Assembly: GCA_951406725.2 (NCBI GenBank)
Contig: OX597816.1
Location: 100,998,001-101,062,000, forward strand
Length of the DNA stretch: 64,000 nt
Direction: 5' to 3'
Source: Octopus vulgaris
Taxonomy: Eukaryota
Both the position numbers and the translations under genes were made by a program. Below are positions 6,457-29,790 of the stretch, one piece after another. The notes below the pieces were generated by a model. The model searched no databases. It was not told where the DNA came from and saw nothing but the letters and a program-made list of their open reading frames with translations. Positions within the stretch are counted from its first letter, which is position 1. The number at the start of each line of letters is the position of its first letter.

Positions 6457-7174
6457 CTCGGGAGAGAGATAATTGGTGTGATAAAAAGAAACTGAATGTC
6501 AAGCGATAATAGTGACTGTATGAAATAGAATACGACAGCAAAGATAAACCGAAAGAAAGAGAAAGGAACAATATTAAGAAGAAAAAGAAAAAGAAAAAGA
6601 GTGAAAGAGACAGTAGTGTTATAGGAAGAGGTCTACGTCGCTTGGACTATTCTACCCACAAGGTACCTAAATTCAAGGCTATTATCAACCACCAGTTTTA
6701 TCATCCAGCTAAGCTCTCTGTCTCTGTTTCTGTCTGTCTTTCTCTTTGCCTCTGTCTTTCTCTTTCTCGCTTTCCCAGACACACACACACACACACACTG
6801 CATTTGTTACCCCACATTTAAACAATTCCTCCTCTCCTCCACCCTATCATTATTCGACCACTGACTCATTAGTTACTCAACCACTATCACCATCCCCACC
6901 TCCACCACTTCAGCTAAGTATATCCCGAAATTTTATCTGCCCCATATCGTTCCAATCTACCAATTACTTGGACCTTTGCCAGATATATGCAGATTATCCC
7001 TGGCAACAAACCTGCCTTGCTCGAACACTCCCTCTCCCAATGAAACGGACATAATCCTTTTCAGTTTGTTCCCCTTCTCCCTATCTTTTTGACAAGTGCC
7101 AGGAGGACAATGAGAAACCACAACAGATTTCACTAGAGGCCTTAACGGCGCATGTTAAAAACCAACAATAATAA

Positions 7175-7365
7175 TAGTTTCTGATTTAGGGGCAAGAACA
7201 TCAATTTTTGAAAGAGAGGGGTTCGTCGATACTATCGACCTCAGTACCTGACAGGTACTTTATTTTATTGACTCCAGAAGGATGAAAGACAAGCTGGCTT
7301 CAGTGGTGTTTGAACTCACTGCGTAAAGAGCTGGAACAAATGCCGATCCTGCCAATCCGTCACAT
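7175..7365 (-). mobile_element. SINE family B (diverged)
   Basis: ggtacttta ttttattgactccagaaggatgaaagacaag...tttgaactc is the reverse complement of the family B core. Confidence 0.7.
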
Positions 7366-7453
7366 TAATAATAACTTCTTTATTTAGTCAAAGGATTTTC
7401 TCCACCTGCAGCCAATCGTCTTACCTTTCTAAGCAACTTAGTCTCTGTCTCTG

Positions 7454-7572
<119 letters not shown>

Positions 7573-8499
7573 TCTACTGCTGAGGTCACTATCTTCATTA
7601 CTTGTCGTACCTATGATTTCACTAACGCCATTAACAAATCCCTTCCACCCCATCCTATTTAAATTCCACTCAATTACTGCATAATTACGTATCGAATATG
7701 AGTCGATATTGAATCGTCTGGACCGGAACTATCAGCCGTAGAAGTCGGCAGTTCGTAGCCTAGGACTGATGCTGCACTTGTCCTTTGTCATTTTCCTTGA
7801 TTATCAACTTTCCAGTGGCTAATCACTCAAAATTAAGTATCGACTTAGCCGAACCCGCAAATCTCCGAACTATCCGTCAAGGGAGTCAATAGTTCGAATC
7901 CTACGACCAATGCTGCACTAAGTCCAAACTCAATACCTTTAATTAGCTCGTTAGGTACTAAAGAAGGAAGTGGTGTACCGATGTAAGTCGTGGGAATACT
8001 GTAAAGCTGCCAAGTGTTTCACTATCTTCTACTTCTGAATTCGAGAACTATTACCACCAATCTAGAGTGAATTCGAAACTGAATAATATCCTTCAAACCA
8101 GAAACTTCATGAAATCTTAGCGTCTTCAATTACCTTTATGGAGGGGACTTGATCTACTAAGAATGGCAGTCAAACCGCATTCAAATTGCACTTTGCCGTC
8201 TTAAAAGCGGAAGAAGATATTAGATAGTGTAGCTTAGTCTAGTATTGAATACACAATATTTCCCGCCAAAGAAGAGATAGTTATGGCTAGACTGACCGGG
8301 CGCTAAGCAACAACACTTTGTATGAGTTCCAAACATTGAATTAAAAAATGTTTTTTTAATTCTATTTCTATTTAAAGAAAACCGTGAAGAAGTGCTATTA
8401 GCTATTATTGCTAGAAATAAGGCCCAATACTAACGAATCCAGAAGCAAGACAGTGTTGTGAAAAATTATCAGTATTATCATTATCATCAACGTAGACAT

Positions 8500-8980
8500 A
8501 AGCGGCGCGTTGGCGGAATTGTTAGCGCATCGCGCAAAATGTTAATGGCATTTCTCCCTGCTTTATACATTCTGAGTTCAAATTTTGCCAAAGTCGACTT
8601 TGCTTACTATAAAATACTAATCAAATACTGGGGATCGATGCAATTGTCTATCCCACTTCTGTTTAAAATGCTGACCTTCTGCAAAAATTTGACAGTTATT
8701 ATTAATAAAGATAAAGGCAGCGCGCTGGCAGAATAGTTATTACACCAGACAAAATACTTCGCAGCATTTCTCTCATTTCTTTTCGTTTTGAGTTCAAAAT
8801 TCGCTGAGGTCGTCTTTGCCTTTCATCCCTTCGGGGTTGATAAAATAAGTACTAACCGAGTACTGGTCTTGTGCCAAAATCTGAAACATTTATAGGGCGG
8901 CGAGGTGACATAACCGCTAGAGCGTCGGACACAATGCTTAGCGACATTTGTTCCGGCTCTTGTGCCAAAATTTTAAACAT
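8500..8980 (+). mobile_element. Three head-to-tail family B SINE copies or fragments (about 8500-8700, 8713-8890, 8895-8980)
   Basis: Repeated ggcgg..(c/t)tggc(a/g)gaat.gttag heads, tgagttcaaa B-box-like motif, ttgcctttcatcc..tcggggt.gataaa core, tgtgccaaaat.t.aaac tails. Confidence 0.75.
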
Positions 8981-11900
8981 TTATAAACACAGACACAAGA
9001 CTGCTAGATTTAATCGAATCCAGTACTTGATCTCAACTTTCAACTGGTATGGACACCCAAATTGGACCTCTTCGTAATATACATAACATTGCTACAATAT
9101 TATCAATGAATGCTGCTTTCATTGATATATATATTTTACAACCGACTTTCACACGCACGCACACACACACACACGACTATACTACCTCTTTTAGTATAGA
9201 ATTATGGTTTCTGTATTAACAGGCCTCAGTAAAGAAATATATATATGTGAGAGCCTCTTCAGACTGCGGTGCTTATTTCACTGGCCTAGGAAGGAGGAAA
9301 GGCAAAATTGACAAAAACATTTAGACAGTTATTTCTAAACGTTTGTACAGTATAAGACTAAATAAATTTAATGCATTTAACAATACTTAAGCTTTTAAAT
9401 AGATTTAGGATACTGAAATATTATAGTTGTGTACACTTAATTAAGCAAATACATATGAACAAAGGCGCTCTAGTTATGACCATCATGTCTTTTATGTCAT
9501 TCATTGTTTCAGTTTGTCTTTCAGTTATAAGATTCGTGGGAGATTTAGCTGTTATCTCTACCAGGCCTAGAAACCACGTAGACATCTCCCCCTCCCTGTT
9601 ACCTGTAACTCCTTATAAAAGTTTTTTTAAACCTGCATCTTTCCCCATGTGCTGCAACATCTACAATTGACTCTATATTTTGGGAGTGCTGCTTTCATAT
9701 ATAGAATGTCACTCATGCCTTGGTCACAGCTATAGAATCAAATACAACAGGGAAGGGAAAAAATCTTTTGCAATTATCGAAATCTTTATTCTCAACATCA
9801 ATGTACTGTCTACTTCTCAACCACTTCTACTGGAGTATACTGAACGCTGTAAACTAAGTCTTAAGCATATCTGTTACACCTATCCTTCTCATCAATCACA
9901 TCCAATTTTTTCCTCAAACCAACAGTAAGAGAAACTTGGTGAGTTTTTGTTTGTTTGTGTGTAAAAAACATTCACCAGAAAGTCTCACAAAAATTGAAAA
10001 CATGCCTTTTTTAATAAAGCCATGCAGATTGTGAGGATCTAAGCTGTAGCTTGATTAGTTTAGACCTAAATCAGGCATTAACCCTAAACCTTACATAAAG
10101 GATCATTTCCCAATTGAACTATTTCTACTTCCTACATGCTTCAACAATGCCCTAATCTTCACATCGATTCCACTTGGTACACCACCGTTCTAGAAAAGAT
10201 TTTCTCTCGACTACCACCCTCGACAGCGTCCTTCCAGAGTCAGTAAGAAGGCCTCTTACTGGCAGCTAAATGTTCCTCAATTCACATCTTACTATCTTTA
10301 AAAAGCACAAGTTAAATAATACGACCTTAGATTCCCAGCACACAGTAAAAGAAAACACGATGTTAATGGTTGGCCTGCCTTTAATTATAAGTTTGCGCAA
10401 TCGGGATTGACCTGGGGTTAAACAAAGTCGACTACAGCAACAGTGTATTCTTGCTCCCATACAGTAAGAATGGACCGAGTGAGAAGAGGAATTGGGAAGT
10501 GTTGGTTAGGGTGAGTGGAAATACACATAAGGTGGAGGTCGCTGTTCTTTAGCCTTAATTTAACCTTTATTGAAAAATCTATAATCGTATGCATTTCTAT
10601 CATGGTCATCCCGTCTTTTCAAAAGTATTTATATCTATTTTACTGAAAATATCTTTTAGTCTCTTATTTATTACTGTAGTGTAATTTTAGGGTGATTTGA
10701 CTGCTATATCTAGCAGACTAAACTACCACATAGATTTTCTTGTTGGTTTTGTTGCCCTTGAAAATATACATATTTGGGATGTTGCTATATCAAATGATGC
10801 ACAGTTAATTACAATAGCAGCAGTGGCAACAGAAACAGTAACAACAACAACAACAACAACAACAGCAGCATAGCCGCTATAACCATAACAACAACAAAAA
10901 CAATTACTGTAACAAAAAAAACTAACAGCAACAAACAAACTGGCCACGCTCAACGATTGACACCTCAGTGTAGTTACCTTACATGCTTGAAATAAGAACT
11001 AGACTCCCTCAAAATTACACCTTAGTGCTTTAAAAAAAAAAGGACACAGTAAATGTTGTCACATTGAAAAAATAAAAGACTGGATAGTCACAAATAGAAT
11101 GTCCTTGATCATAGGTATGTTCGATTAGGGATGATTTGGGACTAAACACTAAGCACAAGGCCGGCAATTTTTGATGGAAGGGTGTAATGCGATGCCAACG
11201 GCCCCAGTACCGATTTTACTTTTTATTAATTTCTACTTATTTATTCACCCCAAAAGGATGAAAGACAAAGTTTGATCTCAGCAGGAATTGAACTCTGAAT
11301 CTGAAAAGCGGAAATAAATACCAGAAAGTAATGTTTTGTGATGCCTTAAAGATTCTGACAATGCATCGCCCTTACCGCAAGAAAAACAATTTCTACAAAA
11401 TAAAAACATCTGTAATAGAAATATCCGTAACTCCAACAACACCAGACTACAATGCAACACCCACGAGCAACACTGGCAACAACATTTATGACGATAGCAA
11501 CAACAATAGTACTAGTCATAACAACGGCAGCAGTCACAACAGTAAGTTTCAACAATAGCTGTCACAATTAGAAGTTGTTTAGCCCCCAAGTCAGCCTTCA
11601 TCAAATAGACTTGTGATCAAAGGCATTCTAATCACGACCATCTCGTCGTTTTGTGTATATAAGATTAATTGTTCAACGTGTCCTTTTTTTTATTAAGACT
11701 GTAGGGTTTGGCTTAGGTGAGATTTTGTTGTTGTTTCTAGCTGATCGTGCAGCCATATAAAGACTCCCGCTTTGTCTCAACATCAGTCACAACAAAAGAT
11801 GTTTCAAGTCATAATAATAACAACAGTCGCCTTCACAGCAATAGCCATCACAATAACAATAGCACTCACACATATACACAATGACAGAGTAGCTATATGA

Positions 11901-13045
11901 ACGTTAGCAACAATAACAACTACACCAGCTACTACAGGGGAAACACGAACAGCAACAGCAGCAATATAAGCGGTAACAACAACAACAACAGCATTGATAA
12001 CAGTAACAACTATAGTAGCAACAAAAATAGCAGCCACAATAGCAACAACAAAAACGATAATAACAAAAAACTACTACAATAGCAACCATAACAGCGGACA
12101 TGAATTTTGTAACAATTACTGTAGCAACAACAATAGCTGTCATAGTAGCAACAACAGCAGTAGTAGTAACATGGACGATTGTAACAGCTAAAATAGTAAA
12201 ATAAACAGCAGCAAAGACGGTAATTACAAAAACCTATTACAGTCTCAACAATAACAACAATAACAGCAATAGTTGTGACAATTACAGCAGCTAGATAAAC
12301 AACAGTGAAAAATAAGAAAAGCTACTGCGGTTGCAACATGAACGGTTGCAACAACAACAGTAGCAATGCGAGCGGTAGTAACAACAGTAAAACAAGTAAC
12401 AACAGCTATAATAGCAACAATAATATGTAACAAGAACAACTCCTACTACAACTAAAGCAAAGTAAACGGTAGCAACAAAAACATTGGCTGCTACAGTAGC
12501 GACAAGCATCATAGCTACTACTGTCGCAACGTGAGCGGTAACAACAAGAACAACTACTACAACAAAGGTAACAACAACTACAAAAACAAAAACAACAGCA
12601 GTTGTTGCGTTACAGTAGTAACATACAACAGTAACAAAAGCAACAATGACAGTGATACGAACAGTTACTATATAACAACATACGCGGTAGTAACAATGAC
12701 AACAACACAGTTACTACTGTAGCAACAACGGCAACGTAAACAATATCAACAACAACGGTTCCTACATCAGCTACAATTGCTGCTACAGTTGTAGAAACAA
12801 TAACAACACTTACAATAATAGTGAGCGTAGCAACAACATCATCATAACCCACAAGAACAATGAAAACCAACAATTTCAGCAGCAATAATGAATTGTAGCA
12901 TAGGCACTAAGTCAAAGATTAAGGAGGGATGCAGGGGTGGTTTTTACTGTCAAAGGCCCTTGAAGCATAAACAGCATTTCGAAGAAGATTCGTTCGAGTG
13001 TCTTAGCCGTAGACTCTTGTTGGAAGAAACCTTGACAGATACCTA

Positions 13046-13220
13046 TTTCTTTATTACCCACAAGGGGCTAAACACAGAGGGGACAAACAAGGACAGACAT
13101 AGGTATTAAGTCGATTACATCGACCCCAGTGCGTAACTGGTACTTAATTTATCGACCCCGAAAGGATGAAAGGCAAAGTCGACCTCGGCGGAATTTGAAC
13201 TCACAACGTAGCGACAGACG
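13046..13220 (-). mobile_element. Apparently young family B SINE variant with a Tx1/L1-LINE-like 3' tail
   Basis: Very clean core atcgaccccgaaaggatgaaaggcaaagtcgacctcggcggaatttgaactc. The tail tttctttattacccacaaggggctaaacacagagggg resembles the LINE 3' end at 26313-26354. Confidence 0.8.
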
Positions 13221-13224
13221 TTTG

Positions 13225-13610
13225 AATTAATTATATCGAACCGTGTACTTATTTTATCGACGTCCCCGGAAGGCTAAATGCAAAGTCAACCTCCGTGGAA
13301 TTTGAACTCAGAATGTGTTTCAAATACGACAAGGCATTTTAATAAAGTTAAATTACCAGAAGGCAATTTATCCGATGCTCTACCGATTCAGATACTTCGC
13401 ACCGATCTGATCAATGACAACTACGATTGTTTTTAATCTAGACACAGGTAACAAATATGGGTGAAGGGAACAGTCGATTACATCGACCCCGGAAGCATGG
13501 AAGATAAAGTTGACCTTGGCGGCTTTTGAATTCAGAACCTTAGGAGCCGGAACAAATAGCTCAAGACAATTTTGTTCGACATTCCAACGATCCTGCCAAT
13601 TCACCATAGC
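13225..13610 (-). mobile_element. Two further diverged family B SINE copies
   Basis: caaagtcaacctccgtggaatttgaactcagaa and aaagttgaccttggcggcttttgaattcagaac motifs. Confidence 0.7.
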
Positions 13611-15632
13611 AATAATAAAATCATAATAGCAATTCTAAGGTGTTTAGAAAGAGTGGGGGTAAGGAGAGGGAATAAGTTTCCTAAATGCTATTAAGTACTT
13701 ATAACTGTTTCAGCTGGGAATCGAAACCCAGCGCACTTCTCGCCGTGCGTTTATCCCGTTACTACTGCATTATGGCAGTCACCGTAACAACAACAACAAT
13801 ATTACTACCGCTACCACCGCCGTCAACAACAAAAAGTCACATCATCATCAGCATCATCATCATCATCATCATCATACTCCACTACCATCTACTATAACTA
13901 CTAGCATAGTTATCGTCGTCATCAATATCAACCCGCCAACTTCATTGTCATCTCCCTCTGTCATTATCACCACCTCTACCTGCATCATAACCATCACTAC
14001 CACTACCACTATAACCACCATCATCGTCATCATCACCAGCGTCACCACCATCACCATCGAAAACAACAATAACAACACCAACACCATCCTTGCCACTCCT
14101 TCCGTCAACAATCGTAACAATTATACTAGAACCACAACCGTTACTACCGCCGCCACTACCACCACCACCACCACCACCATCCCCACACCTATCACCATCA
14201 ATACCGGTATTCCTACAACCATCAACTTTAACGTCATCATCACAATCACCACCACCACGATAAGGAAAACTGTAAGTGGCTTCTCGATGCGCTAGAAATA
14301 GCAGTCATGTCTATTTCAAATCGCACTCTACCGTCTTAAATTAATAGAAAGGACGCATTAATTAATGCCTTGACACCGCCGCTAACATGACGGGATGGTC
14401 AGAGGTGGACTGTTCAGGACAATAGCCTTACTCGATGAGGTCTGACCTGGTATTAAACAAAAACAACTAATAATAAATGATTTCTTTTATTTACTACAAG
14501 GGCATCAGATGAGGTTCAAGGCTAGGAATTCGGAGAATAGTCGATTATATCGACTTCAGCACTAGACTGGTACTTATTTTTATCGACTCGGGAGAGATGA
14601 GTTGCCCCCAGCGTGATTTGAATTCAGGACGTCAAGAACAAGAAAAAGAAAACACAGACTTTATCTTTGCCCAATGCTCTAACATTTCTGCTTATGCACC
14701 ACCCTAAATAGCAGCTAATTATATGTTATACAGAGGAAAATTAATGAGATTGTGTGATGCTTATTTATGCAGGGTTTTTTTGTTTTTTTTTCGATAAGTG
14801 TTGGGATTAGAAATATAAGGTATTACTTCGACAAGGGGCTGAAAGTGGCACAAAAGCACGGTGACGGTAATAAACAAGGAATAATATCAAATGACCGCAC
14901 AACAGTGATAACAATAACAACAGCGGTAATGATCGAACTCTTTACAACTGTAACGAGTGACAAGAAACCACGCATATAACTATGATAAACAACAACACCA
15001 ATAACCATAACAACAGTAGTAACGAAAACAACAACAGTGTTAACTACGAATAATACAGTCATAACTAAGCATAACAAATATTATTTCTAAGAGAGCGGAG
15101 AATTCCAAACGTGGTCAATAGACGTGCTAGATATACCAGGCAAATCTCTTTCGTCTTTACTTGAATAGGTAAAAAAAGAAACTATAGATAATTTTGTATT
15201 AGATGCTCACTAAAAGGCTGGATGATCAAGGCTGGCATGTCTTTGATCCTACGTTTACTCTATCATTGTTGACCTAGTGATGAACTGCAGCAACAACTAT
15301 TTCTACAACTATTACAACAACAACAAAATACACGAGCCAACGGGGGATTTCCTATGCGTTCGCTCGAGCTGCTAGAAACAGCAACCAAAAACCTCCATAA
15401 AATCACAATAGAAATGCAAAAAGGTAAAAGGGAAGAACATAGTGTATAGTGAACTTTATTATCCTGTGTCTGAATAAAGACGGGAAGGTCACGACTGGAA
15501 GGTTTTGATTATATGTCTGCTATATATCAAGGCTATCCTGAAAACAAATACTACATTCATAAGAGCGATAACAATAATAGCAACATTATCAACATCAATA
15601 GCAACGATTGCAACTAAACAACAACAACAACA

Positions 15633-15710
<78 letters not shown>

Positions 15711-16282
15711 AATATATTCATAAGCACAATAACGATATAATACAACAATATTTACAACAAAATAACTATTACAACAGGAGCAACAACAACGAAAACTATT
15801 TAACAATAGACAACAGAGAAACACAGCAATCATAACAACGACGACAGTGATAGATACGACAGCATCTATAGTAGCTAGGGGTGATTATGGCTGGCGTGTC
15901 TTTTACTACAGACCGGTTTCGGTCAGGACTAACCTCAGGCCAACCAACAACAGCCACGACAACAAACTCAACATCATTCACAACAATAACAACGGCAACT
16001 ACAACTACATCGGTAATTACGCGCCAAAGAAGGGGGGAGTTGCTATGCGATGGCTCGACCTGCTGGAAATAGCAGCAATTTCTCTTTCGCGTCGCACCTG
16101 CCCGTGTAGACGTCGATATCTCTTAAAAGCCAAGATGGTCAATAGCTAAACTGCCTCTGTTAAAATGTTGACCTTGGACTAAACTACATCAATAATGACC
16201 AGAACAACAACTGCAATTTAAAGAATGTGAGGTTGCGACAAGGAAAGCGAAAATTGAGAACTCAGGGAAAGTTTGAAAACCT

Positions 16283-16347
16283 TTATTTAAATAATAGATT
16301 GACATGTTTAAATAATAGATTGACATATTTAATTAATGGAATGACAT
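16283..16347. repeat. 21-bp minisatellite, 3 units
   Basis: tttaaataatagattgacatg / tttaaataatagattgacata / tttaattaatggaatgacata. Confidence 0.85.
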
Positions 16348-17061
16348 AATAATAAATGTTTAGCATTCAATGTAATAGATGTATTATTTTCCTGTGATAT
16401 CGAAATGTAATGACTGTGTATGTTTATGGCAATATCATCCCTAACTGTAATGCATTTCTTAGTATCCCTATGAGTAAGACTAGTATTGTTATACCTAAAG
16501 GTACTTTCTAAGTTATCTTTTCAATGTTTCCAATGAAGGTTGCATCAACGGGGATGCTTGATGTGAAAAGTCTCAACTAACAACAGGCTCGTTATCTCCG
16601 AAAACAAACTTTTCAAGTTAACACATTATGTTATACATGCATATATAACCATTTTCAAGCGCGCGCACACACACACACACGCACGCATATGCACACACAC
16701 GGACATACACACTCATACATGCGTACGCAATCTTGTATTGGCTGAGACTACTACAAGGCAAGCCTTATGAAACGGTGGAGCAGAGGTTGGCATCGTACTG
16801 GGGCCCAGGAATTTTTTAAGATGTCAGAAAATGCTTGCATATATATATGATATTAGCATTCCCAGAAGGGAAGACCCAACGAACATCACAGCCACCACCA
16901 CCGGCATAACTACCCGAAAGAAACATTGTACTCTCTGATAAGATTCTCTCAGATACCCTGGCTATAAACAGTAACTCAAGGACGTAGAATTTGGTGGCAA
17001 AGCACTTCCCAAAAGTTTGGCTTGTGCCCTGGTACGAAACTCCACATTTCTGAGCTCTGAG

Positions 17062-17125
<64 letters not shown>

Positions 17126-17314
17126 GTTTAAATATTTGTTGTGCAAGATTTATTGGCTACTGGCAATATGACCATTCCGAAATATAACAATATATATATA
17201 TATATATATATATATGCATATTTATGTGTATATAATATAATATATATATATATACTTATATACATACATATATGTACATACCCACACACATATGTATATA
17301 TATACATGCATACA

Positions 17315-17503
17315 TGGGTAGAGGACGTCAAAAGAAAAAAAACGTGAACAAAACGAGAAAAGAGAACAAGAAAAACAAAAACATGGAAAACGAACCCCCT
17401 TTCGAATAACGAAAGAAACAAATAGAGAAACGAGACAGGCAACATAAAAAAACATTCCCTTCATCAGTTGTCCCCTGGTTTATCTACTCCGCGTTTCGAA
17501 CGT
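17315..17503 (-). mobile_element. Short TA-embedded element, probably a Penelope-like terminus, related to 44115-44260
   Basis: Minus strand cgaaacgcggagtagataaaccaggggacaactgatgaaggg matches plus-strand cgaaataggagtaatgaacagtcggacaactgatgaggag at 44128-44168. Flanked by (TA)n. Confidence 0.55.
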
Positions 17504-17631
17504 GTATATATATATATACGTGTGCGTGGTGTGCGTGCTTGTGTACTAGGGTTAATTTGTTCGACTAAATATTTCAAGGCAGTGCCCCAGCATGGCCACA
17601 GTCTAATGTCTAAAAAAAATATATATGTATG

Positions 17632-17677
<46 letters not shown>

Positions 17678-17746
17678 TGTACATATATCTATATATGTAT
17701 ATATATATATATGTATGTGTGCATATATATATGTATATATATATGT

Positions 17747-17789
<43 letters not shown>

Positions 17790-17857
17790 TACATGTGTAT
17801 ATGGAAGTATATTTATTTATACATATATATATGTATATGTGTATATATATATATGAA

Positions 17858-17900
<43 letters not shown>

Positions 17901-17934
17901 GTATGCATGTATATATATATATATATGTATTATA

Positions 17935-17988
<54 letters not shown>

Positions 17989-18046
17989 GTATATGTATGC
18001 GTATAATAGAAGACGATACAATAAACACGGACAGGACATGCCTAGT

Positions 18047-18089
<43 letters not shown>

Positions 18090-18215
18090 TGAGTTAGATT
18101 TAACATTTATTTTAATAGAGGATTCCTATTTCCCTTTCCTTTTTCTTCTCTTTTCGGAAATCCCTGAAAATTGTCACAGAAAAAAAGAGCATCGAATATA
18201 GAAGTAAAGACTTAC

Positions 18216-18444
18216 CATAATTTCTTCTTTGCCTTGGTCCATCGGAATATCCGCCAGGACTACAAATAAGTCGCAAAAAGTTCGGTATTTTGTCGCCACA
18301 GTAACCACCTGACGCGGCACCCTGACGGATTGTTTCTTCATTACAGGTGTGCTCTAAACCGGCTATGACCAGCTGCCAGTTGAGTAGGCTGATAAGGAGA
18401 GCCAAAAGCATTGTCCATGTCGTACACATGTTGCAGGATTTCAT
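18216..18444 (-). CDS. Insulin-like peptide precursor (molluscan MIP/Aplysia-insulin type), first coding exon: signal peptide + B chain + start of C peptide
   Basis: Translates as MKSCNMCTTWTMLLALLISLLNWQLVIA|GLEHTCNEETIRQGAASGGYCGDKIPNFLRLICSPGGYSDGP-RQRR-NY-(G). It has a hydrophobic signal core, B-chain spacing C-X14-C(G)-X11-C with the extra N-terminal Cys and EH[ST]C motif of molluscan insulins, and a furin/PC-type RQRR site. The exon ends at TAT G|GTAAG (plus-strand cttac 18211-18215), the phase-1 C-peptide intron typical of insulin genes. 229 nt = 76 codons + 1. Confidence 0.93.
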
Positions 18445-18452
18445 TGAACCGG

Positions 18453-18480
18453 CTGAAAAACGAGCACAAAAAGGAAAGAT
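18453..18480 (-). promoter_or_regulatory. Candidate splice acceptor (polypyrimidine tract + CAG) 8 nt upstream of the insulin ATG
   Basis: Minus strand reads ctttcctttttgtgctcgtttttcAG|ccggttcaATGAAA. This implies a 5'UTR intron and makes ATG 18444, not the ORF-track ATG 18492, the likely start. Confidence 0.7.
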
Positions 18481-18496
18481 TTTCGTAGCCATAGAT

Positions 18497-18584
18497 CTTT
18501 ATAAAACGCGCCGGCGGCGAGTGCAAAGCGAGGTTCGTTGGCCTCAGCCAACCACACACGCGCGCGCATGCATCTCGCCCATTC

Positions 18585-18585
<1 letters not shown>
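18497..18585 (-). promoter_or_regulatory. CpG-rich segment with TATAAA just upstream of the insulin exon (possible proximal promoter or intronic element)
   Basis: Minus strand ...gcactcgccgccggcgcgtttTATAAAgatct (TATAAA at 18503-18498). Unusually GC/CpG-rich for this window and bounded by a (GA)n tract. Confidence 0.35.
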
Positions 18586-18649
<64 letters not shown>

Positions 18650-18693
18650 TCTCACTAACTCTTTCTTTCCCTCTGTGTATGTGTGTGTGTATG

Positions 18694-18779
<86 letters not shown>

Positions 18780-18786
18780 TATATAT

Positions 18787-18825
<39 letters not shown>

Positions 18826-19127
18826 TATCACTCCACCCTCAATGTCGATCTCTGTCTAACTGTCAGGAACCCTCCTTGTCCCTCTTCATTTTCTGCAGTT
18901 CTACCTATCATCCTCTCTAACACTCCCACTCTGGGCTCGTCTTCTAATTTTTATTTCTCTCTCTTGCTTTCTCTCATTCTCTCAATCCTTGTGTCTCGTT
19001 CCTTTCCTACCCCCAATCTCTTGCTCACCACCTCTCTCTCTCTCTCTCACACACTTTCACACATACTCTCCCTCTCTCTAATTCTTTCGCTAGATCTTTC
19101 CCTCAATGTCTATCTCTATCTCTCTTT

Positions 19128-19197
<70 letters not shown>

Positions 19198-19564
19198 TAT
19201 GCTCCATGAATCTCCTCCCCTGTCCTTCAACATATTCAGTTCCCCTCTTTCACTGTTTTTACTTCCCTTACTGCATCATCATTTCCGTTAGCTCTCATCA
19301 TCCTCTCACTCTCCCCACCCACTTCTCTTTGTCCGTCATCACTTTTACTTTCTCTACCACGTACGCAAACACACACAAACATTTATACATAACATTATAC
19401 GAGCATACATATACATATATATTATGATTGATAGATACCTATATATACATATAAACATATATACGTAAAAGCATACGTTCATATCTAGCTATATGTGTGT
19501 GTTTATGTAAATATATAACTAAATATTTATATGTACATATACGTGTGTATATATACGCGCGCCT

Positions 19565-19599
<35 letters not shown>

Positions 19600-19801
19600 C
19601 ACACACACTCACATACACACATACACACATATGTATAGACATGCATGCATGTATGTATGTATGTATGTATGTATGTATGTATGTATGTATGTATGTATGT
19701 ATGTATGTATGTATACACGCACACATGTCGATACAGATAAATGCATGTATATATATGCATTTAATACACATAAATATATATATATATATATATAATATAT
19801 G

Positions 19802-19861
<60 letters not shown>

Positions 19862-19934
19862 GCATATATATATATGTCCCCTTTTTTGTATCATCTGTCT
19901 AGATGTTTTGCGTTCTTGTCCCATTTTTTGTATT

Positions 19935-19987
<53 letters not shown>

Positions 19988-20128
19988 TGCGTAAGTAGAC
20001 ATGCACAGATCGATCGATAGATAGATATATCAGTATACATACGTAATTATATGCGCATATGTACAAACATATATACATAAATATGTGTGTATATGTGTGT
20101 GTGGGAGTATGTAAGCATGTGGTTATAT

Positions 20129-20179
<51 letters not shown>

Positions 20180-20349
20180 TAAACAAAAAAGTTATATCAT
20201 TCTATATATATATATATATAAACAAATATATGAACATAAACAAAAAAGTTGCACATATCTACGTGTGTGTATCTAAACACTGATATAAATAAGTGCGTGC
20301 TAGCACAATTACGCGCGCGCGCAGGAAAACGCATTTACGCGCGCGAAGA

Positions 20350-20960
20350 AATGGACCAAGTTTGAAACAAGTTGATACTTTTAAATATTTAAAGATCATC
20401 TATGCCAGATAGGAAAAGCATCAAATAAATTAAGTTATAGACTGACCAAGTCAAAAGCTCCTTATAGCAAGAGACTAAACAAATATTGTCAAATAAATGT
20501 TTATCAATAAGAGTTAGAAAGCAGTCCTAATGTGGTACATATGGCCTATCTTTGCGTTAGGTATGACCCAGAACATAAACAACCAAGTGCAAAACTTATC
20601 AATGCTGCAGGGGTATTGTTTCAAAGAAGAATACCGAAGGTATCTTATGCAAACACTGAGGTCCATAAAGAAGCAAAGACCACTAGAAAGTTTCTGAAAA
20701 ACGTAAGGAGATGCTAGGTTCTGTTTATTGGCTCCTTATACGAAAAGAAAAAAAAAATATGAGTTGGAGACAACTCGAAAATTAGAAGGGAAAACCCAAA
20801 GAAGTCACAGAGAGAGCGGGGAATGAGGGGGAGGAGAAGATATTCGATGGCCTTAACAGCTGGCTTCAGAAAAAGCAGCCCAACAGTGTACTAAGTTGTG
20901 TGCGAGAGGGAAGGACATGGAACTCCACGATTGCCGACGCCAGTAGGCATCGTGTATAAA
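20350..20960 (+). mobile_element. Decayed RTE-clade LINE, 3' part of ORF
   Basis: Frameshifted remnants in expected order: LKQVDTFKYL, RVRKAVLMWYIWPI, KLINAAGVLFQRRIPKVSY..N.EV, KLEGK..R, DGLT.W, R.WNSTIADA..H. Confidence 0.72.
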
Positions 20961-21489
20961 GAGGAAGATGAAGTTACCGATATACATAAATACACACACA
21001 GACATATAAACATGTGTATATATAAAACTATGCCCAGATTACGTGTGTGTCAGTGAATCCGTGTGACTGTTCACACACATACACATATGCATTATATATA
21101 TATTCATCACACACGTACACAACACACGCACACACACACATATACACACATACACAGACATATACAGACACATATACATACATGTGTAAGGGCATACACA
21201 CACGTACATAAATACATGCATACATGTATAAACGTGTGTGTGTGTGTGTGTGTGTGTGTAGGGCAGCTATGGAAGCAGTAATAAAAATGAGCATTTGAGT
21301 GTGCGTTTGTGTGTGTACACACACACACACATACATACAGAACACGCACAGACCGGCAACCAGCAGACACACATATAAAGAATTTATTGATATATTTATA
21401 CATATGGATCGGTATACATATATTTACACATAAATACATACATATAGATGTTTATACATATATACATACACGCACGTATAAATACACAC

Positions 21490-21526
<37 letters not shown>

Positions 21527-21589
21527 CTCTCTCTCTCTTTATAAATATACATATATTCATGTGCAAATATATATACATATATATTCATA

Positions 21590-21633
<44 letters not shown>

Positions 21634-21868
21634 TACATTCATATATATATATACAAACACGCAGATATTAAACATATACTGTATGTGTATGTATGCATGT
21701 ATTTATATACATATATATATATATATGTGTATATATGTGTAGGTGTGTGTGTGTGCGTTTATATATTATATAGTTGATATATTTATGACGTATATTCATC
21801 ATATATATATATATATACACACAATATGCATGTTACAAATAGATTTCATCTATATATGTGTGTGTTCA

Positions 21869-22250
21869 TTTATTCTTTTACTTGTTTCAGTCATTTGACT
21901 GCGTCCATGCTGGAGCACCGCCTTTAGTCGAACAAATCGACCCCAGGACTTATTCTTTGTTAGCCTGGTACTTATTCTATCGGTCTCTTTTGCCAAACCG
22001 CTAGCTTACGGGGACGAAAACACACCAACACCGGTTGTCAAGCGATATTGGGTGGTAGAGGGGACAAACACACACACACACGCACACAAAGACACACACA
22101 TACATATACACATACATACACACACATACGCATATATACGACGGGCTTCTTTCAGTTCCCGTCTTCTAAATCCACTCACAAGGCTTTGGTCGGTCCGAGG
22201 GTATAGTAGAAGACACTTACCTAAGGTGCCACGTAGTGGGACTGAACCCA
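21869..22250 (-). mobile_element. SINE family A, well preserved
   Basis: Reverse complement of ggttcagtcccactacgtggcaccttaggtaagtgtcttctac...gaccaaagccttgtgagtggattt...ggcggtgctccagcatggacgcagtcaaatgactgaaacaagtaaaagaataaa. Confidence 0.88.
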
Positions 22251-23047
22251 TGTGTATATTTCTCCTATGTATTTCATATACAAATTTTGTATATACACTA
22301 AATATATGTTACATATATTTTTACAAATTATATATAAATCCTATACTTATATCGCACACTATGCAAATATAGAGAAGCACCCACATACACGTGTATTATA
22401 CACACACACACACGCACGCTAACAAACACACACACTCTAACACACACAGATACTCGCATAAAACGTACACCCGCGCAAACCTACACACACACGCACACAT
22501 ACATATTAAATGTTAAATGAAAGTGTTTATCTTAATGCAAATTAAAGTATAACAACATAAAATTCAGAGTAGGGACATACAGTACAGAGAATAAAACCAG
22601 CTTCAGTGAGTGGCTGATTATGCCGTCAGGCGAAATTTAAACCAATCTTATATGCAATATATATTGCCACTATATTCATATGTACATATATATATGTGGG
22701 GTGGGTGCTTGTGTGTGTGTGTATGTGTGTAAACAGACACACACTTATTGCTTTACATATTCAGAATATACCAATTTTATTCTTTTTCTTAAGTTTTTCA
22801 GTAGGTACAGGTTGTGTGGCACCAGCCTTGTCGCAATCAACCCCGAAAATGAATTTCGTAACTGTTATTATCAAGCTGATGTCTGGAACACATCATGAAA
22901 CCCCCATGGAAAAAAATTGCTACACACACACACACGCACACACACATACAAACATACATATGTATATAAGTATAAGTACATATAATGCATAATTAAATAT
23001 ATGTATATACCTATATAAGCATACAATACATAATTATATATATGTAT

Positions 23048-23145
<98 letters not shown>

Positions 23146-23150
23146 ATATA

Positions 23151-23375
23151 CGAGTGTCGATGAAGTTATAAAGTGTTACTCAGGATCTCAACTATGCACC
23201 TATTACATCCTATAGCAGAAACAGCTGTAAGGTGTTAGAGTTCATAAGATAATCTTTTATTCCAATGCTATTTCATTTTCTGATAGATATATGTATAATC
23301 ACATATATAGATGTATGTGGGTGGTGTATATATATATATATATATAATGACACCTTATAACTTCATCGACACCTC

Positions 23376-23376
<1 letters not shown>
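23151..23376. mobile_element. MITE-like element with about 28-bp terminal inverted repeats, embedded in (TA)n
   Basis: Left cgagtgtcgatgaagttataaagtgtta; reverse complement of right end cgaggtgtcgatgaagttataaggtgtca. Confidence 0.8.
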
Positions 23377-23429
<53 letters not shown>

Positions 23430-23432
<3 letters not shown>

Positions 23433-23630
23433 ATTGAAGAAATTGGAGTCATCAAGAAGGAGTACGGTTGGACAGTTATTTTTTCAATCACTTCAATTGT
23501 TTGTACACAATGTAGTTCTCCAAAAATACCTGAACTTTTGCAGAATTAGGTTGTGTGGAAACAATTGTAGTGATTAAATAATAACTGTCCAACCGTATTA
23601 TTTCTTGTTAACTCCTATTTCTTCAATTTT
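23430..23630. repeat. Long palindrome, about 72-bp arms with about 55-bp spacer
   Basis: aaaattgaagaaattggagtcatcaagaaggagtacggttggacagttatt...aatcacttcaattgttt pairs with aaacaattgtagtgatt...aataactgtccaaccgtattatttcttgttaactcctatttcttcaatttt. Confidence 0.88.
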
Positions 23631-23761
23631 ACATTCACACACGACGAATGCCCGAACAGAAACTTGGAAGTATATAATGATAGTACCGGATAGTATTGGG
23701 TAATTCTGAGAGTGGACGAGCTTTATACTGTACTCTGCCACATACCTTACAGAATGTATCA

Positions 23762-23829
<68 letters not shown>

Positions 23830-24004
23830 TGTGTGTGTGTGTATGTGTATCTATAATATCTTCAATTTTATAGATAGATAGATAGATATTTAGATAAAGA
23901 AAAATGAATTCACGAGATATTTTGATCAAATCCACTACAAATGTTTCGAGTCATCCAGCATCTTTATCTCAGAGGTGTGATACTGTAAAATCAGTTGTCT
24001 TGCA

Positions 24005-24066
<62 letters not shown>

Positions 24067-24792
24067 GACATACGTGTGTGTGTGCAGAATTTTCCCCTAC
24101 TTTTCTTCTCAAATAAGTCCAATATGCTAAAAGTGACCAAAGCTTGAATTGAACCGAAACTCTAAGTTTCAGTACAAACAAATTCAATGATCTCCCATTT
24201 CATTCGCACGCTCATACACATTCATATAATCTCATAAGCACATACATGGACACAAAAATGTTTCTGAAGTAGATTATATATTTAGTTTTAGTTCATCTGC
24301 AATTGGTACAACATACTAGAAACAGGTTGACTTTCTGCATAAATTGGCCTTTCTGCTTTTAAAATATTAGGAAACACAAACTTTGAAATGCTGATTATCT
24401 GGTATTATTAGTTTGTTTGAGCGCACAATGCATTTTCCGTCCTCATTGCAATCTATGCCCCAGAAACTTACTAATATCCGACAATACACTTCGACTTCGA
24501 ATTATTGACGAAGGCAGAAGTACCTCCATAAGATGCTCCGCATGAGATGCACCGTTTTGAAGGAACTAAGACGAAAAGTGACTGAAGCGGTTCAAACAAT
24601 GAGTAAAAATACCCTTCGTTTATCCACTTAGAATATAGTTTAGGTGTCTTGGTATAATGCTTTAGAAATAGACTGGCTAAGAGGCCTATTCTCTCAACAA
24701 CATCAAGTATATCCTACCGAAGAGAATGACAAGGCCCAAAATATATAAGTAATATATATTATTTAACTGAACGCCACGCATCCATTTCCAAG

Positions 24793-24916
<124 letters not shown>

Positions 24917-25530
24917 TGTGTGTGTGTGTGTTTCTACTGCTTGAAGCTTACAAACTTCTTACACTTCGGATCTTATGATCGTATTCACACACACACATAC
25001 ACACATACACACACAGATGTATGTATATATAGCGGGAGAGAAAGAGAGCGAGAGAGGAACAGAGAGAGAGAGAGAGGGAAGTAAAGACATAGGTAGATAA
25101 ATATGTATATATGGACACCTGTATACATGTTATATATTTTCTTATGATTGTAAAATCTGTCAAGAAATGAACCAATATTCAATGAATAATCCAAATGCTA
25201 CAATGAAACCTTTTATCGAAGCGGTTTTAAGAAAAATATCTATAATATCTATAATATTGATCCTACAAGTATAACTAAGAAGCTCAATAGTAGAAGAAAT
25301 ATCTCATAGTACAGTACACGGTGTAACATAGAAGTACATAATGTCTTAACTAAATTTTTCTTTACTTTGTTTACAACATTCTGATAAAGTATATTCATAA
25401 GCCTTGCAGCTAAGCAATTTCAGTTCCACACATTTCTCTAGAAAGATCGCAAAATGACCTGTTGCGGTTAAACTTATTTAAACGACAAAATTGACATGGA
25501 GATGTATTAATATATTCGCAGATAGACAAA

Positions 25531-25565
<35 letters not shown>

Positions 25566-25612
25566 TACATATCACTTTATCAAAACTTAAATGCGTGTGT
25601 GCGAGTGAATAT

Positions 25613-25657
<45 letters not shown>

Positions 25658-25882
25658 AATAATGAAGGGTGAAATTAATTAATTTGGAATAATTATCAAT
25701 TACACCAAGTAGTCTTCGGTATGTAAAAGCCTCATTCGAGGAAAATTTAAGTAATACTAAGCAATAAATTGCTGTATTTTTACTGAGATCTCCTTTTAGT
25801 AGAAGAAATAGGTATAACTCTTTGACTGCTATTTCTAAATTCGGTCTGTGGTAAGGCAATTCGTTGCTAAACCCTTTACTTA

Positions 25883-25924
<42 letters not shown>

Positions 25925-26158
25925 CGTTATGTTGTTCACTATTGTCACTCACGGAGCATGCTTCACTAACAGTCATTGGTTGTCCATGTAGCTTTGAACT
26001 GGTCAACCTTTGTAAGCTTTTAATCCAATTACAACTGCTATAAAGCATGTAGAATAGGATAATATAAGGAGGAAGCAATGAAGGAATTATTAATGAATTT
26101 ATAAAGTAAATTGCTATTTGGAAAGGGAGACCAGTTTCAGGAGGAAAAACTATTCGTA

Positions 26159-26311
<153 letters not shown>

Positions 26312-26312
26312 G

Positions 26313-26595
26313 TTTCTTTATTAGCCACACAGGGCCGAATACAGAGGGAAGAAAATACAATGTAGAGCTTTTCTTTTTCGAAGATAGAAAAAAAAGGAGA
26401 AAAATAATATTCTGATCGAAAGGGATCGTGAGAAAAAGAAAAAAAAAACGATCAAAAGGGATCGTGTATCACAGAAATATTTAAAAAGTGTTAAGAGCAA
26501 GATTAGGTTTATCATTGGAAAGAAAAGCCTACGGAAAAGACCATGGTAACTTCAGGCAAGGAGGGAGCAAACACATGAGAGCAAAGAGCTCTCTC

Positions 26596-26626
<31 letters not shown>

Positions 26627-27190
26627 TCGATTCACAGGATCATGCTTAAAGTAGTTTCGTCACTCGTACGTACCATCTTTGCTACATTCACCCACCTTTT
26701 ATTGAAAATTTCACGAAACAAAACTTGCCTCTCTATTCTCACCTTCCTTTTCAAGTGGTACTTGAAAAAGCTGAGCGATTTGCCAAAGGGATAAGTGTTT
26801 GCCTCTAAACCTTTCGCTCGAGTCCACCACACACATTCTTTCACCATGGCCTCCAGTACGATGAAGACTGCCTTGCCTTCCCGGTTAAGAGAAGGTGGCG
26901 GAGCAATTTTCACATTTTCACGATAGACTCGGCCAACAGACAGACTCGTCCCACACTTGACAGCAGTCGTTCGGCGTAAGCCCACTGGTCCGAAATGGTT
27001 GGACACTGCACGAGTGCGCGCAGAACGGTTTCGTCGCTCTGACCGCATCTCAGGCAAGTCGGTCCGGTGTGTCTCGAACTGTGCCTGTAGAGCTTATTCC
27101 GAAAGAGTAATAATGCCTCTCGATAGCACTGCCAGGGATCCTGGCGATTGTCCATAGGTCCCGGCCAACAGGTCCTGTTGACTTCAAGCA
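26313..27190 (-). mobile_element. 5'-truncated Tx1/L1-type LINE: ORF2 C-terminus (zinc knuckle) + 3'UTR
   Basis: Overlapping frameshifted ORFs give WQCYREAL...GPTCLRCGQSDETVLRALVQCP..DQW (degenerate CX2C-X7-H-X4-C, with H to R) followed by ..MVKECVWWTR..HLKRKVRIER..FNKRWV..*. The pyrimidine-rich 3'UTR ends gtggctAATAAAgaaa. Confidence 0.85.
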
Positions 27191-27293
27191 CCGCCACCAA
27201 ACAACCTCCAAACCATCTATCTCTATTTCGGAGTGTAAGTCCAATTAATTTGAGCGTTTTCTATATTGAGCATCTCTGGATCTCATGTTGACA

Positions 27294-27324
<31 letters not shown>

Positions 27325-28449
27325 ATGAGAGAGAGAGAGAAAATTATACAAAAACTGGTCCCCTTTTCTGAATAACAATTGCGAATTTCTCTGCCTGTGT
27401 CTGCTTGGTTTCCTGGCCTTTAGACTCAGTTCTTTGGGATCAATCCTCAGAAATGGCATATATATAGAATCAGGATAAACCCCAGGAGTTTTGTAACACC
27501 TTTACTTCTTACATCCAATAATGTGCGAATTAAGAAGTATAGAAAGCAAACAAGCTGAATATTGGTTGGAGAATTATAGTTAACCTATTTAGGACATAAA
27601 TGATAGACAATAAGAATATTAAAAGTTTTGGCGGGCGGGGTGAATTTTGGAATTTATTAACTTTTTCATATGCGTCAACATGTTGGTTTTAGATATTATG
27701 CTTTTGAGTAGTAATTTTGTTATTAGCCAAATCATTTCTCTTCAGACGAAATCCATGGAACTTTAAGTGATAGCCAGTCTCGTCATATTGAGTAAATTCT
27801 CCAAGAGGAAAAAGTTCTTTTATATTATGAGCCAACTTAATCTTCAAATTATTTTTAAAGGTCAAATTCGCGAGCAGTAAAAAAATATATTTAATATTTT
27901 GCAAAGACGTTTAGTAAAAAGTTGTACAAGTCATGTCAAGATAGAAAGGAAGCCAGACAAGAGCGAAATTGACAAGATGTGATATATTGGGGAGAAAAAG
28001 TTAAAAGCTAGAATTAAACCTAGGGCTTACAGGAAAAAATGGAGTGGGGGGGGGAAGGTTGAAAGAAGTTTGGCTCGAAATAGTCGGGTGAAGTTTTAGA
28101 CAATTACTAAAATTCGGCAGGACCAACGTTCACGATTGGGCAAAGTTTTAACTTGAAAATTTACGCATGTTAAATTTTATGCAAATATAAAATTATTGAT
28201 GCTCTCTTATATTCTCCTTTTTCTGCGATCTTACTTTAGAGTGAAGTCCCAACAACTCTCCACAGTTGCTAGGCTAAAATCTGCCCGGAGGGCGTTCTTT
28301 TTTGTTAGTACATTACATACATAATATATGCATATCACACGCACTTGCGCATAAACCTTAGTACACATAGTCGGAAGTGAACATATCTGTGATTACACAA
28401 AGGAAAGAAGGGAAAAGAGAAACAGGGAGAGGGATATATATATAGTGAG

Positions 28450-28520
<71 letters not shown>

Positions 28521-29491
28521 CGCGCTGACAGACACAGACGCACGTGCATAGAACAATTACACACATACGTGCGCGCGCGCGTAAATATGGATTTAAGCGA
28601 ACACAGAGAAATACCAGAAGCGAATATAATTGAAAAGTGTTATCTAAACACGAAGGAATTCACCTCGTATATCTCGTTCTTCGGAATCTGGTAAACATTG
28701 TTAGCAGAAGAATTTCCAACTCTACCTACCTTGCGAAACAAAAAAAAAAAAAAAAAAAAATTGCGCCTTTGAGGTCAGTAGGTTCAAAGACAAAATAATT
28801 ATAATCCCAGACGGTCACCATCGAGAAGAAAAAAGTAAACGATGAAATATTTGGCTCGCTTCTGATCATTGCTATACGTTAAGTCCATCATAAGATGTTT
28901 CTCAGATAAACAGATAACCATTTCTCGATGACCTATAGGTGTAGTCATACTATAAAGATTGTATCTCATAATCCAACCCTTCCCTCTGATGATGGATGCT
29001 CAGGAAGAAACATTACAACGGTCTCAATGAATACGCCACGCAACACTGATGATGCAGAAGCGATATCTATAGGTGCAAAGCACAGTGCCGACCTAGAATG
29101 CTACATCAGTTTAATGGACGGTCATTCAAGGAAAGGTTTTTAAATCAGACCTATTGTTTCATATAATCGAGGCGACAGATCTAGCTAACGATGTCTAGCA
29201 ACAGAAAAGCACAACATAGCTGTAAAATCGTTGGCAAAACAAACTATTTCCGTTCATTAATCTGTCTCATTTTTTAATATTTTCTTTCTTTCCCTTGAAT
29301 AGACACATAAACATACCGAACGATCGAAAAACCGAATTTTGATAGAGTTCAGCGAAAGAGCAAAGAGAAATAAGCAAGAGTATATATGAGACGAAATCAT
29401 GATCTCGCAAATTCCATATTTTTTCTTATAAAAGTCGGCTTTCTCACGTTCTATATTATGACCCAAAACCACACACACTCACACACACAAC

Positions 29492-29533
<42 letters not shown>

Positions 29534-29740
29534 TGCACAAATCCTGTTTTTAATATTTTTATTAACAAAGTAAAATTACAATGATTGACAATTATACTAC
29601 CTAGTATAAACAGACGCTTTAAACAATTTTTGTTGATTCCTCCCTCTTTTTGGTATACACTAATTATTAAAGTGATATATGATTTATTTATTGCAATTTG
29701 AACGTCATTATACATACATATATACATGCATGCATACATA

Positions 29741-29790
<50 letters not shown>

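What the first reader, a model, noticed from the sequence alone, without database searches (positions are those of the whole stretch)
18216..18452. Isolated exon of a four-disulfide-type molluscan insulin-like peptide hidden among microsatellites
Seen: signal peptide, B chain GLEHTCNEETIRQGAASGGYCGDKIPNFLRLICSPGGYSDGP with three Cys, RQRR site, flanking AG and GTAAG. Known: molluscan insulins (Lymnaea MIPs, Aplysia insulin, Conus signalling insulins) carry an extra B-chain/A-chain Cys pair and an N-terminally extended B chain. Inference: this is a cephalopod neuroendocrine insulin with a predicted B chain of about 42 residues and a 14-residue spacer between the first two Cys. The 126-aa ORF-track version is wrong at both ends (16 extra N-terminal residues and intron read-through after NY). 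It is the only clear host gene in 64 kb, and small hormone exons like this are easily mis-annotated.
Basis: partly seen in the sequence, partly recalled or inferred. Interest (0 to 1): 0.75.

Follow-up and report, generated by a model that had tools for sequence, protein, structure and literature searches.

The report
Known octopus insulin-like hormone gene
This is the main coding exon of an already annotated and published octopus insulin-like hormone gene, spliced across a 65-kb intron to its second half and likely acting as a feeding, growth and reproduction signal as in other molluscs, so it is real but ordinary.

Summary
Real, and already known. The exon lies on the minus strand (18452 to 18216) and encodes a signal peptide, a three-cysteine B chain, RQRR and the start of the C peptide. 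Contigs from 4 of 4 runs laid leave the genome at 18216 and continue in an exon 65,199 bp away, outside the window, which encodes a C-X-CC-X3-C-X8-C A chain. The spliced 147-aa product is identical to RefSeq XP_029634273.1 (Octopus sinensis 'con-Ins Im1 isoform X2'). Both published qPCR primers of Ov-Mirp, found in octopus gastric ganglion in 2017, match the last exon exactly. The cuttlefish orthologue SjILP (62% identical) has been knocked down. The 14-residue cysteine spacer is the commonest value among eight-cysteine relatives, not a peculiarity. Other gene models splice at that AG from distant exons. The start codon is open; the predicted mature hormone is unaffected. Processing and receptor activation are inferred. 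The scan holds no look-alike finding.

The parts
18216..18452 (-). Coding exon as delimited by the AG acceptor and the GT donor: 8 nt leader, then signal peptide, B chain, RQRR and start of C peptide
18361..18444 (-). Predicted signal peptide M1-A28 (hydrophobic core about M12-L21)
   Evidence: Kyte-Doolittle peak 3.14 and alignment; helix 5-30 in the model; SignalP not run
18235..18360 (-). Predicted B chain G29-P70 (42 aa; 44 aa if Arg-Gln stays after trimming) with C34, C49, C61
18223..18234 (-). RQRR, predicted convertase site between B chain and C peptide
   Evidence: cleavage inferred
1..18215 (-). Phase-1 intron inside the C-peptide coding region, 65,199 bp in all; runs past the window start to the last exon at G000:C3:100951016..100950802 (rest of C peptide, KR, A chain, stop)
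18453..18575 (-). Region that is exon in the contigs laid (read-through) and intron end in spliced gene models. Holds the pyrimidine tract and AG (18454-18453), the in-frame ATG 18492 (adds 16 aa, 163-aa product), a TATAAA at 18503-18498 containing an in-frame stop, and upstream ATGs at 18573 and 18569
18453..54841 (-). Intron of 36,389 bp in the gene model that yields the 153-aa isoform X1
   Evidence: joining 54851-54842 to the exon reproduces XP_036357072.1 exactly; this junction was not seen in the contigs laid
54842..54851 (-). Last 10 nt of an upstream leader exon (Met-Thr-Pro plus G) followed by a GT donor; its 5' end is not determined
   Evidence: single match in the window, 0.04 expected by chance

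Best explanation
This exon encodes the signal peptide, B chain and start of the C peptide of the octopus eight-cysteine molluscan insulin-related peptide (Ov-Mirp), and is spliced across a 65-kb intron to the A-chain exon; the precursor is predicted to be cut into a two-chain hormone with four disulfide bonds that likely signals through the insulin receptor tyrosine kinase to link feeding with growth and reproduction. Shown: exon, splice, 147-aa product, eight cysteines, identity with annotated and published sequences. Inferred: signal cleavage after A28, cuts at RQRR and KR giving a B chain of 42-44 aa and an A chain of 38 aa (about 9.2 kDa together), disulfide pairing, receptor and physiological role. 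Identity about 0.98; endogenous hormone or neuromodulator role about 0.9; the specific feeding and reproduction role about 0.65.
For: Splice in 4 of 4 contig sets to an AG-bounded exon. Product identical to XP_029634273.1. Pfam Insulin 37.8 bits, cut-off 23. All eight Cys invariant in 77 aligned rows (rows chosen for the extra A-chain Cys). The model (mean pLDDT 78.4) has a B helix at 52-60 and A helices at 116-122 and 127-131. Ov-Mirp primers match the last exon exactly, spanning 191 bp against 190 published; that paper reports 100-1,000 CPM in gastric ganglion and lower levels in heavily parasitised animals. The orthologue SjILP groups with it (SH-aLRT 96, quick tree), is highest in ovary, and its knockdown lowers vitellogenin transcripts.
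Against: No peptide-level evidence for the octopus hormone was found. The paper that found Ov-Mirp says its function is unknown and that an endocrine role is not demonstrated. The fold search gave no hit at E <= 0.001 and the PDB sequence search a best E of 0.0092, though nearly all rows were insulin or IGF chains. The runs laid are only guessed to be RNA and their tissues are coded. Only 30 letters of the spliced continuation were shown. In cuttlefish the highest expression is in ovary rather than brain.
Confidence: 0.9

Rival explanations
1. It is a venom insulin of the posterior salivary gland, as the database name con-Ins Im1 suggests.
For: Only the automatic name and the precedent of cone snails recruiting insulin into venom (PMC5062327). 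Salivary-gland expression of this gene could not be read here.
Against: The same name is given to insulins of abalone, limpet, clam and oyster. The gene is expressed in gastric ganglion and its orthologue in ovary, pancreas, liver and brain. One locus was found in G000 (lower bounds). It is 82-86% identical to Argonauta and 62% to cuttlefish, unlike the fast-diverging venom class. Passages of three papers on cephalopod venom or venom mimics name no octopus venom insulin.
Confidence: 0.03
2. It is a local neuromodulator of the gastric ganglion and gut, not a circulating hormone.
For: High transcript counts in gastric ganglion, and the authors favour a transmitter-like role.
Against: The cuttlefish orthologue is broadly expressed and affects ovarian genes. 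Aplysia insulin lowers haemolymph glucose, as cited in PMC5736919 (the original paper was not held). The two modes are not exclusive.
Confidence: 0.25
3. On the 5' end only: the main mRNA starts just upstream of this exon and reads through the AG, so translation may begin at ATG 18492 (163-aa precursor) as the ORF track had it; splicing from distant leader exons is the minor form.
For: 4 of 4 contigs cover 18216-18575 unbroken. Met1 of the Sepia protein aligns to 18492. The Sepiella RACE cDNA has 310 nt of UTR ahead of its corresponding start.
Against: Contigs drop minor branches and cannot show start sites. A TATAAA at 18503-18498 would put a start site downstream of 18492 (inference), leaving 18444 as the first ATG. 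Three octopod models splice at the AG, and RefSeq lists a 147-aa isoform but no 163-aa one among the 3 cluster members. The extension reads like a translated pyrimidine tract, and upstream ATGs at 18573 and 18569 precede it.
Confidence: 0.3
4. It acts as an IGF-like single chain that keeps its C domain.
For: IGF chains rank high in the PDB searches, and the A chain has a 13-residue tail.
Against: The C peptide is 33 aa and flanked by RQRR and KR. The eight-cysteine frame is that of MIPs, there is no long C-terminal domain, and the PDB scores are too weak to rank subfamilies.
Confidence: 0.04

Closest known systems
Ov-Mirp, 'molluscan insulin-related peptide 3' of Octopus vulgaris (PMC5736919)
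   Same: Same gene: both qPCR primers match its last exon with no mismatch, 191 bp span against 190 published.
   Different: The passages read give no gene structure or processing; the exon map here adds that.
RefSeq XP_029634273.1 / XP_036357072.1 (O. sinensis con-Ins Im1 X2 / X1) and GenBank CAI9719717.1 (O. vulgaris con-Ins Im2-like)
   Same: X2 (147 aa) and X1 (153 aa) are reproduced letter for letter from G000 exons; the 203-aa model ends in the same 147 residues (by inspection).
   Different: The models disagree upstream of the AG (leader exons 36, 95 and 116 kb away), and none has the read-through start seen in the contigs.
SjILP of Sepiella japonica (PMC9221753; QHI00145.1) and Sepia latimanus ILP
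   Same: Orthologues: same cysteine spacing, 29 of 44 B-chain and 26 of 38 A-chain residues identical, same 13-residue A-chain tail.
   Different: Annotated with a 15-residue longer N-terminus; highest in ovary; knockdown tested in cuttlefish only.
Eight-cysteine MIP family of molluscs and relatives in annelid and nemertean worms (Biomphalaria MIP-3, Haliotis IRP1, Charonia insulin-like 2B, Conus Con-Ins Im1/Im2, Mulinia mlILP)
   Same: Signal-B-C-A layout, three B-chain and five A-chain cysteines, 11 residues between the second and third B cysteines in 77 of 77 rows.
   Different: Only 23-39% identical over the alignment. Introns of 36-65 kb against a 5.8-kb gene in Mulinia. A-chain tail lengths vary widely in the family.

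Membership tests
Molluscan insulin-related peptides (eight-cysteine MIP type) | Prepropeptide order signal - B - C - A | tested here: met
   SignalP itself not run
Molluscan insulin-related peptides (eight-cysteine MIP type) | A chain C-X-CC-X3-C-X8-C (motif as given in PMC9221753) | tested here: met
   C118, C120, C121, C125, C134
Molluscan insulin-related peptides (eight-cysteine MIP type) | N-terminally extended B chain with a third cysteine | tested here: met
   C34, C49, C61; spacer of 14 is the commonest among relatives, 24 of 73 non-cephalopod rows
Molluscan insulin-related peptides (eight-cysteine MIP type) | Basic cleavage sites flanking the C peptide | tested here: met
   RQRR 71-74 and KR 108-109 present; actual cleavage untested
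Molluscan insulin-related peptides (eight-cysteine MIP type) | Four disulfide bonds in a two-chain product | not testable with these tools
   The model reports no bond list; pairing is taken by analogy from the SjILP prediction
Molluscan insulin-related peptides (eight-cysteine MIP type) | Expression in nervous tissue | tested here: inconclusive
   Tissues of the runs laid are coded; published gastric-ganglion expression is tied to this gene by primer match
Molluscan insulin-related peptides (eight-cysteine MIP type) | Activation of the insulin receptor tyrosine kinase | not testable with these tools
   Inferred from the family
Insulin/IGF/relaxin superfamily (PF00049) | Score above the Pfam cut-off | tested here: met
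   37.8 bits against 23 for the spliced protein; the exon alone gives no Insulin match
Insulin/IGF/relaxin superfamily (PF00049) | Intron within the C-peptide coding region (feature recalled, not from a call) | tested here: met
   Phase-1 intron after NY, 65,199 bp
Conus-type venom insulins | Rapid divergence, often with several paralogues (PMC5062327) | tested here: not met
   One locus found in G000 (lower bounds); orthologues 62-86% identical and grouped octopods with octopods, cuttlefish with cuttlefish
Conus-type venom insulins | Expression restricted to the venom gland | tested here: not met
   Published expression in gastric ganglion; salivary-gland level itself not measured
IGF-type single-chain peptides | C domain retained, six cysteines, long C-terminal domains (features recalled) | tested here: not met
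   Eight cysteines, cleavage sites on both sides of the C peptide, 13-residue tail

The most novel reading that the evidence does not exclude
This is the only eight-cysteine insulin of octopus and the ligand that optic-gland ImpL2 sequesters to drive the fasting and wasting of brooding females. Its output is tuned by a cephalopod-wide read-through first exon with upstream ATGs plus distant alternative promoters, and its conserved helical A-chain tail is matched to the modified cephalopod insulin receptor.
Probability: 0.12. Interest if true: 0.6.

Novelty: already known. Interest (0 to 1): 0.12.

Why it matters
As a discovery it matters little: the gene is annotated, published and has a functionally tested orthologue. 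Three modest practical points remain. The database name 'con-Ins' wrongly suggests a venom peptide. Gene models disagree on the 5' end, and none shows the read-through form seen in four transcript assemblies. The exact predicted chains make the octopus hormone synthesisable, so one can test whether it is the ligand behind the insulin-pathway changes in brooding and senescent females (10.1101/340984).

Tried and rejected
A six-frame scan of the window for CC-X3-C-X8-C found only microsatellite translations; the A-chain exon lies 47 kb beyond the window start. Pfam PF00049 over G000 found nothing, not even this gene, and rang in no control genome: uninformative. Pfam on the exon alone gave only a chance holin match, E 0.15. 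The run search listed no holder on record as RNA; contigs were judged spliced from their boundaries. The 5' end could be examined in only 4 of the 19 runs that hold the exon. Paralogue searches with the A chain and with the second Argonauta eight-cysteine peptide P0022 returned only this locus at meaningful E-values; L009 and L010 lack the A-chain cysteine frame. Eleven other window ORFs had no Pfam match at E <= 0.01. The careful tree did not finish; only the quick tree is used, and 51 of its 86 inner branches are open. Floyd 1999 on Aplysia insulin was not held. The octopus brain atlas text has no insulin-peptide passage. No complex prediction was run, as the report claims no tested binding. 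Rejected: the 14-residue spacer as a novelty, and a venom or IGF-type reading.

Full report
Observation. The feature is on the minus strand; the plus-strand frame tried has stops. Read 18452 to 18216, the exon follows a pyrimidine tract ending in AG and is followed by GTAAGT. The first ATG, at 18444, opens 76 codons and one further base. The peptide has a hydrophobic stretch at about residues 12-21, and alignment with relatives puts the B-chain start at G29. G29-P70 is 42 residues, with cysteines at 34, 49 and 61, followed by RQRR.

The rest of the gene. No A-chain motif lies in the window. A protein search returned an Octopus sinensis protein identical over all 76 residues, plus Argonauta and Sepia relatives. 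Searching G000 with it placed the remainder at C3:100950805-100951017, 47 kb beyond the window start. I laid 4 of the 19 runs that hold the exon, from four studies; they are guessed, not recorded, to be RNA. In all four a single contig stops matching at 18216 and continues with the same 30 letters, which sit directly after a pyrimidine tract and AG at the distant exon. The intron is 65,199 bp, phase 1, inside the C-peptide region. The joined frame gives 147 residues identical to XP_029634273.1. The A chain reads C-X-CC-X3-C-X8-C, so the mature peptide has eight cysteines.

It is already known. The protein is in RefSeq and GenBank for O. sinensis and O. vulgaris under the names con-Ins Im1 and Im2-like. 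[quoted passage not shown] That paper (passages and section 17 read; figures and supplements not seen) reports 100-1,000 counts per million in gastric ganglion and lower expression in heavily parasitised animals, and says the function is unknown. The Sepia protein is 62% identical. Its Sepiella counterpart SjILP (PMC9221753, parts 1-3 of 5 read, supplement not opened) is highest in ovary, then pancreas, liver and brain, and its knockdown lowered vitellogenin, cathepsin L1-like and follistatin transcripts. A quick tree of 89 rows puts the four cephalopod proteins on one branch (SH-aLRT 96), octopods apart from cuttlefish; deeper forks are mostly open and the careful search did not finish.

Family features. 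The spliced protein passes the Pfam Insulin cut-off (37.8 against 23 bits). A search of 1.84 billion representatives gave 117 hits. I aligned the four cephalopod proteins with 73 of the 115 other hits. Left out were fragments, six-cysteine types and five rows with the extra A-chain cysteine (P0018, P0060, P0075, P0100, P0105). All eight cysteines are invariant in these 77 rows (the extra A-chain cysteine by selection). The spacer between the first two B cysteines ranges from 9 to 15, and 14 is the commonest, in 24 of 73 non-cephalopod rows. A pattern count before alignment gave 28 of 79. The spacer is therefore ordinary. The model (mean pLDDT 78.4, pTM 0.56) shows a B helix, two A helices, a poorly ordered C peptide and a helix over the A-chain tail. 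Comparisons with solved structures are weak: no fold hit at E <= 0.001, though every listed row down to rank 46 of 48 is an insulin-family chain, and 47 of 48 sequence hits are, with a best E of 0.0092.

But the four contigs run unbroken from 18216 to 18575 and on into the microsatellite, through the AG and through the in-frame ATG at 18492. That start gives 163 residues, and Met1 of the Sepia protein aligns to it. Against this, gene models use the AG. The 153-aa isoform X1 is reproduced exactly by a leader ending at 54842, 36,389 bp upstream; this was the only match to the motif, 0.04 expected by chance. The 203-aa O. vulgaris model uses two small exons with GT donors 95 and 116 kb upstream. 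A TATAAA at 18503-18498 could place the main start site between the two ATGs (inference), and ATGs at 18573 and 18569 precede both. Contigs cannot show start sites or minor branches, so the start codon is open. The likeliest picture is a proximal promoter plus rarer distant leaders, all giving the same mature hormone.

Mechanism. Shown: exon, splice, precursor, cysteine frame. Inferred from the family: removal of the signal after A28, cleavage at RQRR and KR to release a 33-residue C peptide, and a B chain of 42-44 and an A chain of 38 residues held by four disulfides, about 9.2 kDa. The pairing is by analogy with the SjILP prediction. The peptide would act on the single insulin-receptor-type kinase typical of molluscs (PMC13198591, passages), in ganglia as a neuromodulator and probably more widely as a nutritional and reproductive signal. 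None of these later steps was tested here.

Rivals. The name con-Ins suggests venom, but it is attached equally to abalone, limpet, clam and oyster proteins. Cone-snail venom insulins diverge fast while signalling insulins are conserved (PMC5062327, passages), and this gene is conserved and was found at one locus (lower bounds). Passages of three papers on cephalopod venom or venom mimicry name no octopus venom insulin (search 69). An IGF-like single chain is unlikely given sites on both sides of the C peptide. A purely local neuromodulator remains possible.

Literature seen. Searches. They showed no study of the octopus peptide's processing or receptor activity, but most subscription papers are not held. 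Passages only: 10.1101/340984 (ImpL2 rises in fasting and declining females), PMC12343078 (mentions an octopus insulin in a cluster analysis), PMC9712504 (nothing relevant). No supplements were opened; those of PMC5736919 and PMC9221753 may bear on tissue levels and the 5' sequence. The scan's notes hold no look-alike of this protein and one unchecked note on the octopus insulin receptor.

Verdict. A real, correctly recognised, already described gene. Novelty: already known. Interest 0.12.

Noticed in passing
window 18836-19000 (+ coordinates): One of the four runs laid (X1) has a second contig upstream of the microsatellite block at about a tenth of the depth of the exon contig (9 against 99): a possible longer 5' form or precursor RNA.
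   Followed up: no
window 18499-18582 (-): ATGs at 18582 and 18573 are in frame with the gene but end at the stop inside the TATAAA, giving upstream ORFs of 27 and 24 codons on read-through transcripts.
   Followed up: partly
L004 (G000:C3:101111128-101111223) and L005 (G000:C3:101132857-101132925): Two small exons with GT donors, 95 and 116 kb upstream, account for the 203-aa O. vulgaris model; transcript support was not checked.
   Followed up: partly
protein P0009 (O. bimaculoides UniRef entry, 90 aa): This entry joins a different N-terminus to the last exon and lacks the signal and B-chain exon: a likely mis-annotation of the orthologue.
   Followed up: no
protein P0022 (Argonauta hians GAB1606112.1): A second, divergent eight-cysteine peptide in Argonauta falls next to the cephalopod clade (SH-aLRT 86, long branch); no separate counterpart was found in G000.
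   Followed up: partly
window 26632-27260 (-), 31270-31977, 43389-43718 (-), 61005-61349 (-): Short ORF fragments that from recall resemble decayed retrotransposon and mariner-type transposase pieces; no Pfam match at E <= 0.01.
   Followed up: partly
window about 3600-3800 (-) and 22100-22300 (+): Similar translated stretches at both places point to a dispersed short repeat in opposite orientations.
   Followed up: no
L010 (G000:C14:77790895-77790981): A stretch resembling the start of the A chain but lacking the CC pair and the later cysteines, E 2.4; probably chance.
   Followed up: yes
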